Virus record (IMG/VR): IMGVR_UViG_3300027763_000034
Location: 52,156 to 116,155 of that record
DNA from: a virus
Direction: 5' to 3' (one strand)
Length of the DNA: 64,000 bases
Shown here: in pieces, positions 10,073 to 22,842 of the stretch
Layout: each line of letters starts with the position of its first letter
How positions within the stretch are numbered: position 1 is the stretch's first letter
Made by a program: the position numbers and the translations under genes
Notes under the pieces: generated by a model
The model's input: only the letters and a program-made list of their open reading frames with translations
The model's database searches: none
What the model was told of the DNA's origin: nothing

Positions 10073-10327
10073 ATCTTAATTGTAGCATTTGTATTTTAGT
10101 CGACTGCTATTTCATATTTCTAAAAATGTTAATATATTTTTATTATGTATGATACATACCTAAAAACAAAACGGACATTTGGGATAGACCGCACATATTA
10201 AGCGTGAATGTGTCCTATCTCACAGGATAATTCTAAGATTTATTCCGACACGCCGAGAGATAACTTGATAAATGTCAGTCCCCTAGTGTAGAGTTATCTT
10301 ATAACAACAAACGAAAGGAGTCACACA

Positions 10328-10504
10328 ATGACTCAACTTACAGAAACACTATACAGCACTATTGTGCACGACTTCCATAATGGTGGGGTCAAGTCCTCTT
10401 ATGGACTCAATGCCTATACACGCAAGGCTCTATTGCGTGACCTACTCTCTAGCAAGGCTTGCTATTGCATAGAGTGCGTGTGTGAGGTAACTCACACCGC
10501 ATAA
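10328..10504 (+). CDS. Small early protein (58 aa, Cys-rich C-terminus)
   Basis: Follows promoter 10273 and the ACGAAAGGAG RBS. Confidence 0.65.
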   Translation: MTQLTETLYSTIVHDFHNGGVKSSYGLNAYTRKALLRDLLSSKACYCIECVCEVTHTA

Positions 10505-10594
10505 GGCTCACGCTACGGCGTGTCGCCTTGATAATGTCAGCCCACTAGGCTACAATACTTACTATAACTACTAACGAAAAGGATAGAAAATAAA

Positions 10595-10747
10595 ATGAAG
10601 ATAACTTACTCACTATGGGACGGCGCTCAACTACTAGGCGTGGATTTCACCGCTAATAGCGCAGACGAAATGAATAAGGTCGTAGCAGACCTAATGAAAG
10701 TTTCTCGTAATGTCGTAGCACATATGCGAAAGGTAGAGCAGAACTAA
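10595..10747 (+). CDS. Small early protein (50 aa)
   Basis: Follows promoter 10535 and RBS; stop overlaps the next ATG. Confidence 0.65.
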   Translation: MKITYSLWDGAQLLGVDFTANSADEMNKVVADLMKVSRNVVAHMRKVEQN

Positions 10748-10929
10748 TGTCATACGCATACTCATACCAAACTAACTCAATAGATAAATATAACTCTATT
10801 CAATCAGATGTCGCAGACGCATACGCATACCTTGATGAAGAAGAAACAGAGCAACCCCCTGTTGATGATTTTGATGATGTAGATGATGAAGAATTGGCGC
10901 AAGTATTCGCACTAAGTTGGGATAACTAA
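10747..10929 (+). CDS. Small, highly acidic early protein
   Basis: D/E-rich 60 aa; translationally coupled. Confidence 0.6.
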   Translation: MSYAYSYQTNSIDKYNSIQSDVADAYAYLDEEETEQPPVDDFDDVDDEELAQVFALSWDN

Positions 10930-11175
10930 TGAACTTAGAACTAAACGGATATGGTCTATGCCTAGATAGCGATTGGTTCTATGTCGCACTAGATTGGAAA
11001 CTAATAACACTAACCGCCCTAGTGGTAATCGCCTATAAGATTTATAAGAGAAAGAAGAATAAGTAATGACTACTAATCGCCTACTAACTACCCTAGTGCA
11101 ACTGGGTATTGGTATCCCCGCCCTGCTTATGCTACGCCTTGCTATAAAAGACTTCTTAGAGAATGGACTAGATTA

Positions 11176-11370
11176 ATGAAATCGGAATTAGAGAGAGATT
11201 TAGAAATCAAAGAAAGTTTTATTGATTTACTAAATGATGTTTATCCTACTGTAAAAATCGGTTACTCTACATTCACACCCGCCGAGATTTTGGAGTGTTG
11301 CGATCCTATCGCTTTTTCTATCGGACTAATTGAGCACCAAGATTATTTAGAAGAATTAGAAGAAGAATAA
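11176..11370 (+). CDS. Small acidic early protein
   Basis: Coupled start; ends exactly at a repeat module. Confidence 0.65.
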   Translation: MKSELERDLEIKESFIDLLNDVYPTVKIGYSTFTPAEILECCDPIAFSIGLIEHQDYLEELEEE

Positions 11371-11429
11371 CGGCGTGTCGGCTTGACAATGTCAAGCTGG
11401 CCCGCAAAGGCACGGGGTCGGGCGTGTCG
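11368..11429 (+). repeat. Inter-cassette repeat with GCTTGAC-N3-GTCAAGC palindrome; partial copies at 12953-13000 and 13961-14000
   Basis: TAACGGCGTGTCGGCTTGACAAWGTCAAGCTGGCCCGCAA is shared with 13961; AGCTGGCCCGCAAAGGCACGGGGTCGGGCGTGTC is shared with the ~12967-13000 copy. Confidence 0.9.
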
Positions 11430-11580
11430 TTACGGGCTTTGCATAGAACCCCTAGAATTTTGTGATTTTTATCACATAGGTTGAGCGTCTCAGTATTTGG
11501 ATTTACTGGCTAGTAATTATCTTATGTCAGTGGGTTCGTGTATAATGTCTACTATAACAACAACGAAAGAAGGTCAATTC

Positions 11581-11700
11581 ATGAACCTAGATGAATTCAA
11601 GGCGCATGTTATCGCCACCCGTCAAGCAAGCAAGGCAGAAGCCTTGTCAGTGCTATCTGCTACAATGTCAGTATCAACAACAACGAAAGAAGGAAAGTAA
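11581..11700 (+). CDS. Small early protein (39 aa) whose 3' half is a duplicated promoter cassette
   Basis: RBS at 11561-11573; track start 11497 lies upstream of the promoter. Confidence 0.55.
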   Translation: MNLDEFKAHVIATRQASKAEALSVLSATMSVSTTTKEGK

Positions 11701-11894
11701 TGTCAGCAAATGTTTACAATGTAACCGATTTACTAATCGGAAAAACTTATCGCTCAAATTCCGTAACTGGAGAAATTATCTCAGCGGAAATTCACCCGCA
11801 AGCAATTTGGTATGAAGGCGCAGAAGCGTATCGTGTCCAAATTAGAAAAAATACTGGCGGTTATACTTATCGCAGTTTGGCGGTAAATAAATGA
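11700..11894 (+). CDS. Small beta-rich early protein
   Basis: Own promoter and RBS; shares TG.I..EIHPQA with 14717-14896. Confidence 0.7.
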   Translation: MSANVYNVTDLLIGKTYRSNSVTGEIISAEIHPQAIWYEGAEAYRVQIRKNTGGYTYRSLAVNK

Positions 11895-20503: not shown

Positions 20504-20782
20504 ATGAATTCAGAAGACATTGGGCTCCCGCCCCACTTGCAACGTTTAGTTAATGCAGGTGTTAATGGATTAGATATAATGCATGGCGAACTAAAGAATC
20601 TAATGTTGATTGCCGAAGAGCAATTGGCTTGGGCTCAGGCAATTGAAGATGAAACCGAAGAGGCAATGGATTCAATGGCACGTACAGAGGCGGAGGGACG
20701 ACTAGATACTCTAGTTGAACTATATAAACTAACATATGATTTATCATTTGCTATAGGAGAAAAGGAAGGGCAAAAAGTATGA
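20504..20782 (+). CDS. Hypothetical early protein
   Basis: Promoter 20459 and GAGAGG RBS before ATG 20504. Confidence 0.65.
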   Translation: MNSEDIGLPPHLQRLVNAGVNGLDIMHGELKNLMLIAEEQLAWAQAIEDETEEAMDSMARTEAEGRLDTLVELYKLTYDLSFAIGEKEGQKV

Positions 20783-21012
20783 CATACGAGCCAAGTCTAG
20801 AAATCCTGGAAATGGAATACTCTTGCTCACCTGGAGGAGTAGATACATTTGAGGTGTATGATAAAACAGATATACCTTTATCTGTACCAATATATGAGAC
20901 TGAATCTTTGACGGATGCCGTGCTCTACTGTTATAATTTAGGGAAAGACTTTACTGTCAAGACATTAGCGGAATGGAATGAAAGGGAGTTAGCATATGAA
21001 GCCAGCCGATAA
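20779..21012 (+). CDS. Small early protein
   Basis: Coupled ORF. Confidence 0.6.
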   Translation: MTYEPSLEILEMEYSCSPGGVDTFEVYDKTDIPLSVPIYETESLTDAVLYCYNLGKDFTVKTLAEWNERELAYEASR

Positions 21013-21313
21013 AGATAAACTAAACGAATGTTTAAAGATTCTAGACACCACCGACCTTGGCTTGTCATTAGTATGGCTGTGGACATGGTCCACAATTAAC
21101 AACATTTTTGAGGATGAGACCTACAAGCAGAACTGCACCATAGATGACATGTGGGACCACCTCTGCGAGGCCGTGGAGGCTGGTATGGGCTTCTCCCTAG
21201 AGTACGGGGCGGAACAACATCAGGAAGACGTCCTTGAATGGATGATGAATCGTGAGTACATTGTCGACACAATGTTTGAAGAAGAGGAAGAAGACGAAGA
21301 TGAGGATGAGTGA
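20996..21313 (+). CDS. Acidic hypothetical protein
   Basis: GGGAG RBS; poly-D/E tail. Confidence 0.65.
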   Translation: MKPADKDKLNECLKILDTTDLGLSLVWLWTWSTINNIFEDETYKQNCTIDDMWDHLCEAVEAGMGFSLEYGAEQHQEDVLEWMMNREYIVDTMFEEEEEDEDEDE

Positions 21314-21532
21314 TCAATACATCGATGAGATCCTTAACAGGGCCCAACAGCTTTTGTGGGGCGGATCAGAAACAGAGAACATCGAAGCACACAACCTTAT
21401 ATCTAATCTAATTAAAGAAAGAGTAGAACAAGTTTCTAACTGAGGGCAAGATTTTTAGTTTACGGTGACTATTTACAAACCCGTGAAAAGTTGCTATAAT
21501 TAAAGCAAACCGATCTAGAAAGGATCAAACAC

Positions 21533-21682
21533 ATGACAACAAAGCGTGAATATCTAAAGCAGCAAGGCATCACAGTAGGTGTACGTGGCCGCTTCTCAGG
21601 AGCAGCTAAGGTAGCTCTACAAGAAGCTGCAGCAAAGGGAATTACATTTACATCAGAGGCGCCTGCTAACAAGGCCAAGTAA
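21533..21682 (+). CDS. Lsr2 DNA-binding-domain-like microprotein (49 aa)
   Basis: Not in track; REYLKQQGITVGVRGRFS resembles the Lsr2 C-terminal RGR AT-hook; own TGcTATAAT promoter and AAAGGA RBS. Confidence 0.65.
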   Translation: MTTKREYLKQQGITVGVRGRFSGAAKVALQEAAAKGITFTSEAPANKAK

Positions 21683-21689
21683 GCCAGGG

Positions 21690-21734
21690 ACGGGGTTAGG
21701 GCTTCGTTGGTCCTTGACCCCGTTTCTTATTTTT
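21690..21734 (+). terminator. Terminator hairpin with UUCGUUG loop
   Basis: ACGGGGTTAGGGC/GTCCTTGACCCCGT stem followed by a U-rich tract. Confidence 0.7.
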
Positions 21735-21764
21735 GATACAATAGACAGTTAGGCGGAGGCGGAT

Positions 21765-22133
21765 ATGAAAACACCAGAAAGCAAAGTAGCAGAATCATTA
21801 GTTAATTTAATGGATGACCATTGGTTTAATCCAACAATGTTTGGTCGATATTTGGCAGAACAGCCAATGTATACACTTGACCGCATTATGGAAATGGTTG
21901 TATCGATTATATCAGAACAAGCAAAGATATATGATGTATATCTAAATAGGGGTACATCGTCTGAAGGTCTATTACTAGCCAATGAACTGAATGAATGTAT
22001 CAAAGCATATCAAGAAGATAATAGTTTAATTAATCTTAAGTTACCTTCTCGTTCCTACAAAGTAGGGACGGTTCCAAAGGAACCTAAAGTTAATATATTT
22101 GGATGGAAAGAAGAAACAGATCCATTCAGTTAG
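21765..22133 (+). CDS. Hypothetical protein
   Basis: TGaTACAAT promoter and GGAGG RBS. Confidence 0.7.
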   Translation: MKTPESKVAESLVNLMDDHWFNPTMFGRYLAEQPMYTLDRIMEMVVSIISEQAKIYDVYLNRGTSSEGLLLANELNECIKAYQEDNSLINLKLPSRSYKVGTVPKEPKVNIFGWKEETDPFS

Positions 22134-22842
22134 TATTAGGCATATGACAATGAATAGATGAATGCCTGGTTAGATAGATAAACATATCTAGCCCAAATTA
22201 TCCACAGGGTTATCCACATCCTGTGGATTTTTTGTATGCTGTGGGCATGTGGGCAACATTTTGCTTTTACGACACATGATCCAAATCCCTGAAATTTCTA
22301 GCTCATGGGCCAAATTTTTCATTTACGAAGCCTTGACAAAAATCCCTGAAAATGCTACACAATATGTCTAAATAGATAATTATACATATAGAATGTCGAC
22401 AAATGTGTAGAGAATATGGCAAAATAAGCAAAAATCGCTCCATAAATCTATTGACAAATATGGATCAATATGCTGCTATATATGGCTATTGACATTACGT
22501 TTAAGATGGGGTATGCTCAATTACATATGTATGTTTAACTATATATAACTATAGTATATGATATGCTATCTATAGTATAAATTCTCCACTATGCTCCACT
22601 TTACTCCACTATATAAGCCTTCTAAGGGCTATATGAGGCTGGATAAATGGGAGGGGGATATAGGAGTTAGGAGCTAATTTATTGCAATTTGCTCTTATTC
22701 TTAGATGGTCTTCTAGACCAATCTGGAGCTTTATGTGCAGTAGTTCCTCTAGATGTAGAATCTATTAGGGCTTTATTCTTATCTAATGCTTCTTGGGCAT
22801 ATTGAAGCTGTTGATCCCAATTGAACTTCCGTTTTTTTGCCA

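What the first reader, a model, noticed from the sequence alone, without database searches (positions are those of the whole stretch)
10209..22350. Candidate new system: a multi-input, host-state-sensing early regulon with an RNA off-switch
Seen: the intergenic modules repeat a similar order: stop codon, GACAC and/or DnaA boxes, TTACG motif, CRP box, TGTCRG-N10-TANNNT promoter, AACGAAAG leader, ATG (most complete at 13961-14153 and 15859-16025). The block also encodes an antisense-loop RNA and an Lsr2-like microprotein. Inference: the first-expressed genes are wired to four host actinobacterial regulators, namely PafBC (ssDNA/damage), CRP (cAMP), WhiA (division) and DnaA (replication), and are then shut off post-transcriptionally. 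The arrays could alternatively act as decoys that titrate these proteins. I do not know of this combination being described.
Basis: partly seen in the sequence, partly recalled or inferred. Interest (0 to 1): 0.92.

Follow-up and report, generated by a model that had tools for sequence, protein, structure and literature searches.

The report
Phage early block on PafBC-type promoters
A 116-kb uncultured phage of low-GC actinobacteria runs about 35 small, probably early genes from some 15 promoters built like the ones its likely hosts use, through the DNA-damage activator PafBC, for recA; other conserved protein-binding boxes and a small RNA that mirrors the genes' shared ribosome-binding leader surround them, and none of this has been tested at the bench.

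Summary
Window 10.2-22.4 kb is a plus-strand block of small genes separated by repeated cassettes: GC hairpin, boxes, promoter, AACGAAAGG leader, ATG. Every motif class is far above chance and is kept in 80 related phage contigs.

- **PafBC: well supported by sequence.** The promoter is aaTGTCAGtgg-N7-TAnAAT and has no -35. Small actinobacterial genomes that carry pafB-pafC place this motif before recA and radA, 5-9 times per 1.4 Mb. The phage has 9 strict and 15 loose copies in 10 kb.
- **DnaA: supported as motifs.** The boxes match those beside the hosts' dnaA gene.
- **CRP: open.** The palindromes are real, but what binds them is unknown.
- **WhiA: not supported.** The conserved word is GGCGTGTCG, which is not enriched in the host-like genomes.
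- **TTACG-N15-CCCTGRAA scaffold:** phage-specific, function unexplained.
- **Antisense-loop RNA:** conserved, with compensatory base changes.
- **The 49-aa protein:** a lone Lsr2-type DNA-binding domain.
- **Mosaic block:** the gene content varies between close relatives, as with T4 PeSL cassettes.

No binding or transcription data exist. This scan has already noted the PafBC-type promoters in at least 27 other phage genomes, and the RNA and the scaffold in several.

The parts
10273..10294 (+). P2 promoter 1 (TGTCAG-N10-TAGAGT). It also has TTGATA at -35 with an 18-nt spacer. Drives the 58-aa ORF 10328-10504.
10535..10556 (+). P2 promoter 2, with a TTGATA -35 (17-nt spacer). GGCGTGTCG lies 9 nt upstream.
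11525..11546 (+). P2 promoter 3 (TGTCAGTGG type, no -35).
11645..11666 (+). P2 promoter 4, inside the preceding small ORF.
12262..12283 (+). P2 promoter 5, inside the preceding small ORF.
13052..13073 (+). P2 promoter 6 (TGTCGG variant), before the GP88-family gene 13101-13820.
14103..14124 (+). P2 promoter 7, in the most complete module (13961-14153).
14668..14689 (+). P2 promoter 8 (TGTCAGACC subtype).
15007..15028 (+). P2 promoter 9 (TGTCAGACC subtype), directly after a GC hairpin.
15974..15995 (+). P2 promoter 10, before the DUF932 gene 16025-17029. AATGTCAG, the -10 and the leader are nearly invariant in 60 variants.
17232..17253 (+). P2 promoter 11. ATG 17261 lies 7 nt after the -10, giving a leaderless start.
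17412..17433 (+). P2 promoter 12, internal, before the in-frame start at 17465.
19105..19126 (+). P2 promoter 13, before the 257-aa DUF1281_C/Api92-like gene 19154-19927.
19877..19898 (+). P2 promoter 14, inside the end of the preceding gene.
20459..20480 (+). P2 promoter 15, the last of the array.
11430..22350 (+). Eight copies of the rigid scaffold TTACG-N15(16)-CCC(T)GRAA, starting at 11430, 14025, 15889, 17193, 19024, 21460, 22267 and 22323. Each follows a GC hairpin. The variable slots hold DnaA boxes, the CRP-like palindrome or GGCGTGTCG. The binder is unknown.
14013..14042 (+). Pair of direct DnaA boxes (TTATCCACA at 14013 and 14034) flanking TTACG.
15877..15908 (.). Pair of inverted DnaA boxes (15877 on +, 15900 on -) flanking TTACG.
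22198..22228 (+). Two direct DnaA boxes plus an inverted partial copy, forming a terminator-like hairpin with a T run at the end of the block.
11461..11476 (.). Perfect TGTGA-N6-TCACA palindrome. Others are at 14054-14069 and 15920-15935, each 2-4 nt after the scaffold's CCCTGRAA, and at 10481-10496 inside an ORF. One-mismatch copies lie at about 17188 and 19071.
10247..14085 (.). Seven GGCGTGTC boxes: 10247 (-), 10517, 11372, 11421, 12993, 13965 and 14078 (-).
18834..18990 (+). Conserved structured RNA element. It has a 5' hairpin, two covarying helices, a 14-nt loop ATTTCTTTCGTTGG (18921-18934) complementary to the CCAACGAAAG leader, and a strong intrinsic terminator at 18959-18990.
21533..21682 (+). 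49-aa protein made of a single Lsr2-type DNA-binding (RGR) domain. It has its own canonical promoter, TTTACA-17-TATAAT at 21472-21500.
17083..17157 (+). tRNA-Asp(GTC) inside the block.

Best explanation
The stretch is the early, host-takeover gene block of a lytic siphovirus-type actinophage related to Streptomyces BE/BK phages.

It is built from repeated terminator-promoter-leader cassettes that also serve as recombination joints for swapping small genes.

Its roughly 15 promoters are hybrid promoters of the actinobacterial PafBC (RecA-NDp) class. They have a -26 element TGTCAG(TGG), an extended near-consensus -10 and no -35.

The inferred mechanism is that host RNA polymerase with sigma A is recruited by host PafBC, which is always present and is switched on by single-stranded DNA. 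Phage entry, or DNA attack on the phage, would then boost the whole block at once.

Upstream, a rigid phage-specific scaffold (hairpin, TTACG, N15, CCCTGRAA) holds interchangeable sites: paired DnaA boxes, a CRP-type palindrome and GGCGTGTCG. These probably tune or shut individual cassettes; what binds them is not known.

A conserved RNA from the same block shows a loop complementary to the shared AACGAAAGG leader and probably damps translation of the class.

Shown: the motifs, their spacing, enrichment and conservation; the host-side counterparts; and the covariation in the RNA. Inferred: every binding event, the timing and the direction of regulation.
For: **Phage identity**
- DnaE is 58% identical and DUF932 is 51% identical to Streptomyces BE/BK phages. 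In those phages DUF932 lies in the roughly 11-kb terminal repeat full of small genes (PMC5764925).
- The phage carries a WhiB gene.

**Promoter class**
- Counts and enrichment.
- In 823 distinct copies from relatives, the -35 zone carries at most 0.17 bit per position. The positions beside the fixed core prefer AA before TGTCAG, then T and G/C, with TG before the -10.
- The published consensus and mechanism match (PMC8635444; PMC6789036; PMC11804915).

**Host side**
- recA in five small actinobacterial genomes is preceded by tTGTC[AG]GTGG-N7-TAnnnT, followed in four by a LexA box.
- The strict pattern occurs 5-9 times per genome in seven of nine small genomes, against 0-1 for the reversed control. 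It lies before recA, a RadA-type gene, a LysM gene and carD.
- pafB-pafC-tatC is present, and WYL-domain genes were found in 151 of 151 sampled genomes of the class.

**The phage has no obvious factor of its own**
- It has no WYL-domain gene and no sigma-70 region 2.
- None of 20 block proteins has a recognisable DNA-binding domain except the Lsr2-like one.

**Breadth**
An accidental N11 version gave 20 stretches, each with a single hit.
- Arrays of 6-16 same-strand copies occur in contigs with no nucleotide similarity to this phage.

**Cassettes as joints**
- ORF-sized replacements between close relatives end at the leader/ATG and at gene ends.

**RNA**
-.
Against:
- The -10 elements are near consensus and mostly carry TGn. 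Sigma A might therefore fire them without any activator, and three promoters also have a 5-of-6 -35.
- Relying on a damage-activated factor for the first genes is odd unless entry itself makes single-stranded DNA.
- The nearest cultured relative by DnaE, BillNye, has no such array. NootNoot has TGTCCy-N10-TAGACT with a TTG -35-like element, so only TGTC and the spacing are shared.
- The palindrome TTGACA-A-TGTCAA at 11382 and 13976 suggests that a dimeric protein, unlike PafBC, may read TGTCA.
Confidence: 0.5

Rival explanations
1. The promoters are read by host RNAP-sigma A alone, through the extended -10. The invariant TGTCAG in the spacer is then an operator for a phage-encoded protein, a class-wide repressor for the early-to-middle switch or a phage activator acting like T4 MotA. 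The likeness to PafBC promoters would be convergent or coincidental.
For: - The -10 is near consensus with TGn in most copies.
- Palindromic versions of the element (TTGACA-A-TGTCAA at 11382 and 13976) fit a dimeric binder.
- NootNoot cassettes carry TGTCsGG..CCGGACA palindromes upstream of TGTCC-type promoters.
- Most block proteins have no known family, so an unseen DNA binder is possible.
Against: - The match to host recA-type promoters extends beyond the core to GTGG and to the exact N10 spacing.
- The off-by-one spacing is rare in phage contigs.
- A phage factor would have to be made first, yet only 2-3 promoters have a usable -35.
- No HTH, WYL or sigma domain was found.
Confidence: 0.25
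2. The boxes act mainly as decoys. Fifteen PafBC sites, paired perfect DnaA boxes and perfect CRP-type palindromes on a replicating phage genome would soak up PafBC, DnaA and Crp. That would blunt the host damage response, replication initiation and cAMP control.
For: - The phage block holds as many strict PafBC-type sites (9) as a whole 1.4-Mb host-like genome (5-9).
- It holds 6 perfect DnaA boxes against 5-11 per host-like genome.
- It holds 4 perfect CRP-type palindromes against one in five host-like genomes.
Against: - Every P2 copy sits at a fixed, short distance before a ribosome site and an ATG, on one strand only. That is what promoters need and decoys do not.
- Titration is not testable here.
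Confidence: 0.08
3. The constant order of the boxes reflects common descent. The intergenic modules would be paralogous copies of one mobile terminator-promoter cassette, PeSL-like, kept because they mediate gene shuffling. The DnaA-like, CRP-like and GGCGTGTCG words would be bound by phage proteins or by nothing, with no input from host state beyond the promoter itself.
For: - The block is strongly mosaic among relatives with at least 90% identical DUF932, with breakpoints at the cassettes.
- DnaA boxes and the palindrome co-occur in one module subtype: 102 of 114 DnaA-type modules also carry the palindrome.
- The scaffold and GGCGTGTCG are not enriched in host-like genomes.
- PeSLs are described in PMC2839356 and PMC4122927.
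Against: - Within modules the boxes stay nearly invariant while the filler diverges.
- DnaA boxes keep their slot while flipping orientation, and nearly always occur in pairs.
- The 9-mer equals the boxes next to dnaA in host-like genomes.
Confidence: 0.15

Closest known systems
PafBC-dependent (RecA-NDp, recA P1-type) promoters of Mycobacterium and other Actinobacteria, read by 'sigma adaptation' (PMC8635444, PMC6789036, PMC11804915)
   Same: - A -26 element TGTC(A/G)G, exactly 10 nt, then TAnnnT.
- No -35.
- GTG often follows the core.
- Leaderless starts occur.
- The same motif stands before recA and radA in host-like genomes.
   Different: - These copies are on a phage, as an array of about 15 in 10 kb.
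- The -10 is near consensus with TGn.
- There are no LexA boxes.
- Position 5 is A in 93% of copies.
- Dependence on PafBC is untested.
PeSL (promoter-early stem-loop) cassettes of T4-type phages (PMC2839356, PMC4122927)
   Same: Composite terminator hairpin plus early promoter, repeated between small genes of unknown function in a hyperplastic region, with gene gain and loss breaking at the cassettes.
   Different: - A different phage lineage and host phylum.
- The promoter is not a plain sigma-70 early promoter.
- The cassettes carry an extra rigid scaffold with swappable boxes and a shared leader.
Terminal-repeat early gene blocks: Streptomyces cluster BE phages (about 11-kb repeat, PMC5764925) and the SPO1 host-takeover module (the latter from my own knowledge)
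   Same: - About 20-35 tiny genes on one strand, each group with its own strong promoter and ribosome site.
- The DUF932 and Lsr2-like genes are shared with BE phages.
   Different: - Here the assembly shows no terminal repeat (header), so the position at a genome end is inferred.
- BE promoters read TTGnnn-N2-TGTCCy-N10-TAGACT.
T4 middle promoters with MotA/AsiA (sigma appropriation; discussed in PMC8635444)
   Same: An activator box replaces the -35 on a promoter with a normal -10, defining a temporal class of phage genes.
   Different: In T4 the factors are phage-made. Here no phage factor is seen and the box equals a host activator's box.
c4 antisense RNA of phages P1 and P7 (from my own knowledge)
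   Same: A small structured phage RNA whose loop pairs with a ribosome-binding region of phage messages made from the same region.
   Different: - There is no Rfam C4 match.
- A single loop is aimed at a leader shared by about 10 genes.
Start-associated sequences of cluster K mycobacteriophages (from my own knowledge)
   Same: A conserved word that includes the ribosome site directly before many phage start codons.
   Different: The word is different (AACGAAAGG), and here a complementary RNA loop is encoded nearby.

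Membership tests
PafBC-dependent (RecA-NDp) promoter | tGTCgg-N10-tA-N3-T geometry | tested here: met
   There are 15 copies with exact N10 spacing. The consensus was read in PMC8635444.
PafBC-dependent (RecA-NDp) promoter | No -35 element | tested here: met
   12 of 15 copies score at most 4 of 6 at the best of four spacings. The -35 zone is information-free in 823 distinct copies. 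Three copies do have a 5-of-6 -35.
PafBC-dependent (RecA-NDp) promoter | The host carries pafB-pafC and uses the same motif at DNA-damage genes | tested here: met
   The pafB-pafC-tatC locus is present. The motif stands before recA, a RadA-type gene and a LysM gene. These are host-like genomes, not a proven host.
PafBC-dependent (RecA-NDp) promoter | PafBC binding and induction by DNA damage or single-stranded DNA | not testable with these tools
   No expression data could be reached.
CRP/GlxR binding site | TGTGA-N6-TCACA palindrome | tested here: met
   Four perfect copies, all in the block. The arms are nearly invariant in relatives.
CRP/GlxR binding site | The host has a Crp-family protein and a regulon with this site | tested here: inconclusive
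   A 230-aa HTH_Crp_2 protein is present in 5 of 5 genomes, but those five genomes hold only one perfect site. Degenerate sites were not assessed.
CRP/GlxR binding site | Fixed activating position relative to the promoter | tested here: not met
   The centres lie about 69, 74 and 84 nt before the inferred P2 start (my count). The site is instead fixed 2-4 nt after the scaffold's CCCTGRAA.
DnaA box | The 9-mer TTATCCACA, as used at the host origin | tested here: met
   There are 6 copies in the block. In two host-like genomes, perfect boxes lie just after dnaA and in the last 1-2 kb of the chromosome.
DnaA box | Bound by DnaA, with an effect on transcription or replication | not testable with these tools
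   -
WhiA site | GACAC core at target promoters | tested here: inconclusive
   The core is present, but the conserved word is GGCGTGTC(G). That word is not enriched in host-like genomes: 3-6 copies against 4-7 for the control. WhiA itself is present.
PeSL-type mobile regulatory cassette | Stem-loop plus early promoter repeated between small ORFs, with indel breakpoints at the cassettes | tested here: met
PeSL-type mobile regulatory cassette | T4-type phage with a sigma-70 early promoter | tested here: not met
   This is an actinophage related to Stanwilliamsviridae, and the promoter lacks a -35.
c4-type antisense RNA | Structured RNA with a loop complementary to a ribosome-binding region | tested here: met
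   The helices are 100% paired with compensatory changes, and the loop is invariant. It has 8-11 nt of complementarity to the leaders.
c4-type antisense RNA | Sequence and structure membership (Rfam C4) | tested here: not met
   No C4 match at E up to 1.
Lsr2 | C-terminal RGR DNA-binding domain | tested here: met
   phrog_6269 at E 3.5e-7. It aligns to both DNA-binding repeats of the NootNoot Lsr2-like protein. Pfam gave no hit.
Lsr2 | N-terminal oligomerisation domain | tested here: not met
   The protein is only 49 aa long, all of it the binding domain.

The most novel reading that the evidence does not exclude
The cassettes could be true multi-input switches. Host PafBC would fire the class. 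Host DnaA and Crp, plus one more factor, would bind in the swappable slots of a fixed scaffold and gate individual cassettes according to the host's replication and nutrient state. One phage RNA would then close the whole class by pairing with the shared leader. This would be a phage regulon built almost entirely from borrowed host regulators.
Probability: 0.12. Interest if true: 0.85.

Novelty: new variant of a known kind. Interest (0 to 1): 0.6.

Why it matters
Phages are known to listen to the host SOS system through LexA and RecA, and to make their own promoter-retargeting factors. I found no paper that describes phage promoters of the PafBC sigma-adaptation type.

If PafBC fires these promoters, an abundant group of lake phages starts infection, or answers attack on its DNA, with the host's own single-stranded-DNA alarm. 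PafBC would then become a factor in phage susceptibility in Actinobacteria.

The arrays also give many natural variants of the -26 element for studying sigma adaptation. The anti-leader RNA offers a simple model of class-wide translational shut-off.

The idea can be tested with ordinary reporters in M. smegmatis or C. glutamicum.

Tried and rejected
- **Similarity to known phages.** Megablast of the block against GenBank phages found no match.
- **Host from tRNA.** An exact search for tRNA-Asp in genomes found nothing.
- **Host from WhiB.** Homologues of the phage WhiB are all phage-type. The genome scan returned only mis-binned phage-like contigs, which I used solely as entry points to actinobacterial genomes. 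Genome names were not shown, so the 'host-like' genomes stay anonymous. Three unpublished genomes (G021, G026, G033) count only in that 151/151 tally.
- **The scaffold as a host promoter.** TTACG-N15-CCCTGAA is not enriched in five host-like genomes, and the phage has no sigma factor. I rejected this reading.
- **The scaffold as an RNA stem.** The GGG upstream proved to be the 3' arm of the preceding covarying GC hairpin. No consistent pairing with CCC was established.
- **Anti-leader RNA in NootNoot.** None was found in its terminal repeat.
- **RNAalifold on the RNA.** Its consensus missed the helices. I therefore tested a hand-derived structure, which tends to flatter itself.
- **One mis-typed scan.** A scan with N11 spacing ended up serving as a control.
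- **LexA boxes.** None are present in the phage, even allowing 2 mismatches.
- **DNA-binding domains.** Pfam and PHROGs on 20 block proteins found none beyond the Lsr2-like one.

Full report
**What the DNA is.** The window is part of a single 116,155-bp viral contig that CheckV rates as complete. Its DnaE-type polymerase is 58% identical to that of Streptomyces phage BillNye. Its DUF932 protein is about 51% identical to those of Streptomyces cluster BE phages. The phage encodes a WhiB protein and eight tRNAs in the window, so it is an actinophage. At 37-40% GC it fits a low-GC actinobacterial host. In BE phages the DUF932 gene lies in the roughly 11-kb direct terminal repeat, with about 20 tiny genes on one strand and an Lsr2-like gene (PMC5764925). 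Window 10.2-22.4 kb has the same look. It holds about 35 small plus-strand ORFs, running opposite to nearly all other genes. 'Early' is therefore an inference from analogy.

Reading the sequence confirms the cassette order: stop codon, GC hairpin, boxes, promoter, AACGAAAGG, ATG. TGTCRG-N10-TAnnnT occurs 17 times in the genome, and 16 of these are on the plus strand between 10273 and 20459. Fifteen stand 24-44 nt before an ATG with a GAAAGG-type ribosome site; one (17232) stands 7 nt before a leaderless ATG. Against Markov simulations every motif class is strongly enriched in the block: 16 against 0.23 for the promoter, 8 against 0.03 for TGTGA-N6-TCACA (counted on both strands), 6 against 0.14 for TTATCCACA, 7 against 0.14 for GGCGTGTC, and 10 against 0.45 for AACGAAAG. 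Eighty related contigs have 7-18 promoter motifs on the gene strand and 0-1 on the other. Before the DUF932 gene the boxes stay nearly invariant in 60 variants while the filler drifts.

**The promoter class.** Only three of the 15 promoters have a 5-of-6 -35 hexamer. A plain sigma-70 scan finds no clear excess over shuffles in the block, 47 against 37.2 ± 5.9. In 823 distinct copies from relatives, the -35 zone carries at most 0.17 bit per position. The unfixed positions around the core prefer AA before TGTCAG, then T and G/C, with TG before TAtAAT. This is the published PafBC promoter: tGTCgg(N10)tA(N3)T, a -26 element read by the PafB helix-turn-helix at the GTC triplet, with a canonical -10 and no -35 (PMC8635444; PMC6789036). 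PafBC is present at constant level and is activated by single-stranded DNA (PMC11804915, abstract).

**The host side.**
- I reached actinobacterial genomes through a mis-binned contig in an Aquiluna MAG. All 151 sampled genomes of that class carry WYL-domain genes.
- In five genomes of 1.4-1.5 Mb, recA is preceded by tTGTC[AG]GTGG-N7-TAnnnT. In four of them a TCGAAC-N4-GTTCG LexA box follows.
- The strict pattern TGTCRGTG-N8-TAnnnT occurs 5-9 times per genome in seven of nine small genomes, against 0-1 for the reversed control. It lies before recA, a RadA-type gene, a LysM gene with a LexA box, carD and others, and many of these starts are leaderless.
- Two of these genomes have the tandem WYL/WCX and HTH_PafC/WYL genes; in the one examined in detail tatC follows them, as at the mycobacterial paf locus.
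- The phage holds 9 strict copies in 10 kb, as many as a whole host-like genome.
- The phage has no WYL gene, no sigma-70 region 2 and no LexA box.

**Breadth of the promoter class.** My mistaken N11 version gave 20 stretches with one hit each. Contigs with no nucleotide similarity to this phage carry same-strand arrays of 6-16 copies. Among the cultured relatives, NootNoot shares only TGTC and the spacing, and BillNye shares nothing.

**The other three 'inputs'.**
- *DnaA.* The boxes are perfect 9-mers. In relatives they come almost always as a pair flanking TTACG (114 of 115 modules). They keep their slot even when the orientation flips. The same 9-mer lies just after dnaA and at the chromosome end in two host-like genomes, which hold only 5-11 perfect boxes each. 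The motif assignment is therefore sound. Whether the boxes regulate, titrate DnaA or mark an origin is open; the cluster at 22198-22228 next to an AT-rich repeat stretch fits an origin.
- *CRP.* The four perfect palindromes are real and conserved, and each host-like genome has one Crp-family protein. Yet five such genomes together contain one perfect site. The distance from the sites to the promoter varies, while the distance to the scaffold is fixed. A phage protein is as likely a binder as Crp.
- *WhiA.* The conserved word is GGCGTGTC(G), in either orientation, usually 10-30 nt upstream of TGTCAG; this also holds in unrelated P2-bearing contigs. It is not enriched in host-like genomes, although WhiA is present. 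It contains TGTCG, so a second PafB-type contact is another possibility. I cannot assign it.

**The scaffold.** TTACG-N15-CCCTGRAA occurs eight times here and in 382 distinct copies in relatives. It always follows a GC hairpin whose arms covary, and 69% of copies have a P2 within 160 nt downstream. It is absent from host-like genomes. It may be a weak TTTACG-N18-TGRAAT promoter or a docking site for an unknown protein. This remains unexplained.

**The RNA.** Region 18834-18990 is conserved in 37 of the 80 relatives. A structure with two inner helices is 100% paired, with GC-to-AU and UA-to-CG double changes, and it far exceeds the shuffled and slid controls. I derived this structure from these same sequences, and the relatives are close, so the test is lenient. 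The second helix closes a 14-nt loop, ATT(T/C)CTTTCGTTGG, which is invariant apart from one position. The loop is complementary to 8-11 nt of the CCAACGAAAG(G/A) leaders, covering the ribosome site. A strong terminator ends the unit. Rfam has no family for it. Repression of the class is plausible and resembles the c4 RNA of P1, but it is inferred.

**The microprotein.** ORF 21533-21682 matches the PHROG for Lsr2-like proteins. It aligns to both RGR DNA-binding repeats of the NootNoot Lsr2-like protein. It lacks an oligomerisation domain and has a canonical promoter of its own.

Among relatives whose DUF932 is at least 90% identical, ORF-sized pieces of the block are missing or replaced. The breakpoints are recurrent and fall at the leader/ATG and at gene ends. 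Examples are 14160-14350 in about 40 contigs, 20760-21000 in 26 and 11700-12050 in 18. This is the behaviour described for PeSL cassettes of T4-type phages (PMC2839356, PMC4122927). Part of the constant box order is thus inherited from duplicated cassettes.

**Verdict.** The features are real. The PafBC-type promoter array is the strongest and most interesting part, and I found no paper describing it for phages. The four-regulator model is only partly supported: PafBC yes by sequence, DnaA as a motif, CRP open, WhiA no. The RNA is well supported as an element but not as a switch. This scan had already noted the same promoter class in at least 27 other phage genomes, and the RNA and the scaffold in several. 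Those notes agree with my tests but are not independent evidence.

Noticed in passing
window 22150-22650: The end of the block carries three DnaA boxes forming a terminator-like hairpin and two scaffold copies. An AT-rich stretch with TCCACT three times and several TTGACA-type promoters follows. This is a candidate replication origin or terminal-repeat boundary.
   Followed up: no
window 17232-17465: One P2 promoter gives a leaderless start (ATG 7 nt after the -10), like many host PafBC-type promoters. A second P2 inside the gene precedes an in-frame start at 17465, so two protein forms are possible.
   Followed up: partly
L096-L098 (recA upstream in host-like genomes): GCGTGTC, the core of the phage GGCGTGTC box, sits just after the -10 of the recA PafBC-type promoter, once or twice, before the LexA box. 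This is unexplained.
   Followed up: no
L188, L233, L236, L244 (IMG/VR contigs): Other low-GC phage contigs with no nucleotide similarity to this genome carry 6-16 same-strand TGTCAGTGG-N7-TAnAnT promoters. Several have a TTGACA 2-3 nt upstream, and some have GGCGTGTCG 11-15 nt upstream.
   Followed up: partly
L001 (Streptomyces phage NootNoot, 1-10000, minus strand): The terminal-repeat cassettes read: hairpin, TGTCsGG..CCGGACA palindrome, TTGnnn-N2-TGTCCy-N10-TAGACT, then a (CAAC)GAAAGG leader. The leader word CAACGAAAGG is shared with the lake phage.
   Followed up: partly
window 11380-11396 and 13974-13990: A 17-bp palindrome, GCTTGACA-A-TGTCAAGC (one mismatch in the second copy), lies directly after GGCGTGTCG. 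It looks like an operator for a dimeric protein and contains the TGTCA core of the promoter element.
   Followed up: no
window 39412-42102 (-): An 896-aa ORF with a proline-rich, extensin-like repeat in a local GC peak (45%).
   Followed up: no
window 18272-18463 (+): A 63-aa block protein matches DUF7455 (E 3e-11), with a faint hit to a phage beta-clamp-binding protein family.
   Followed up: no
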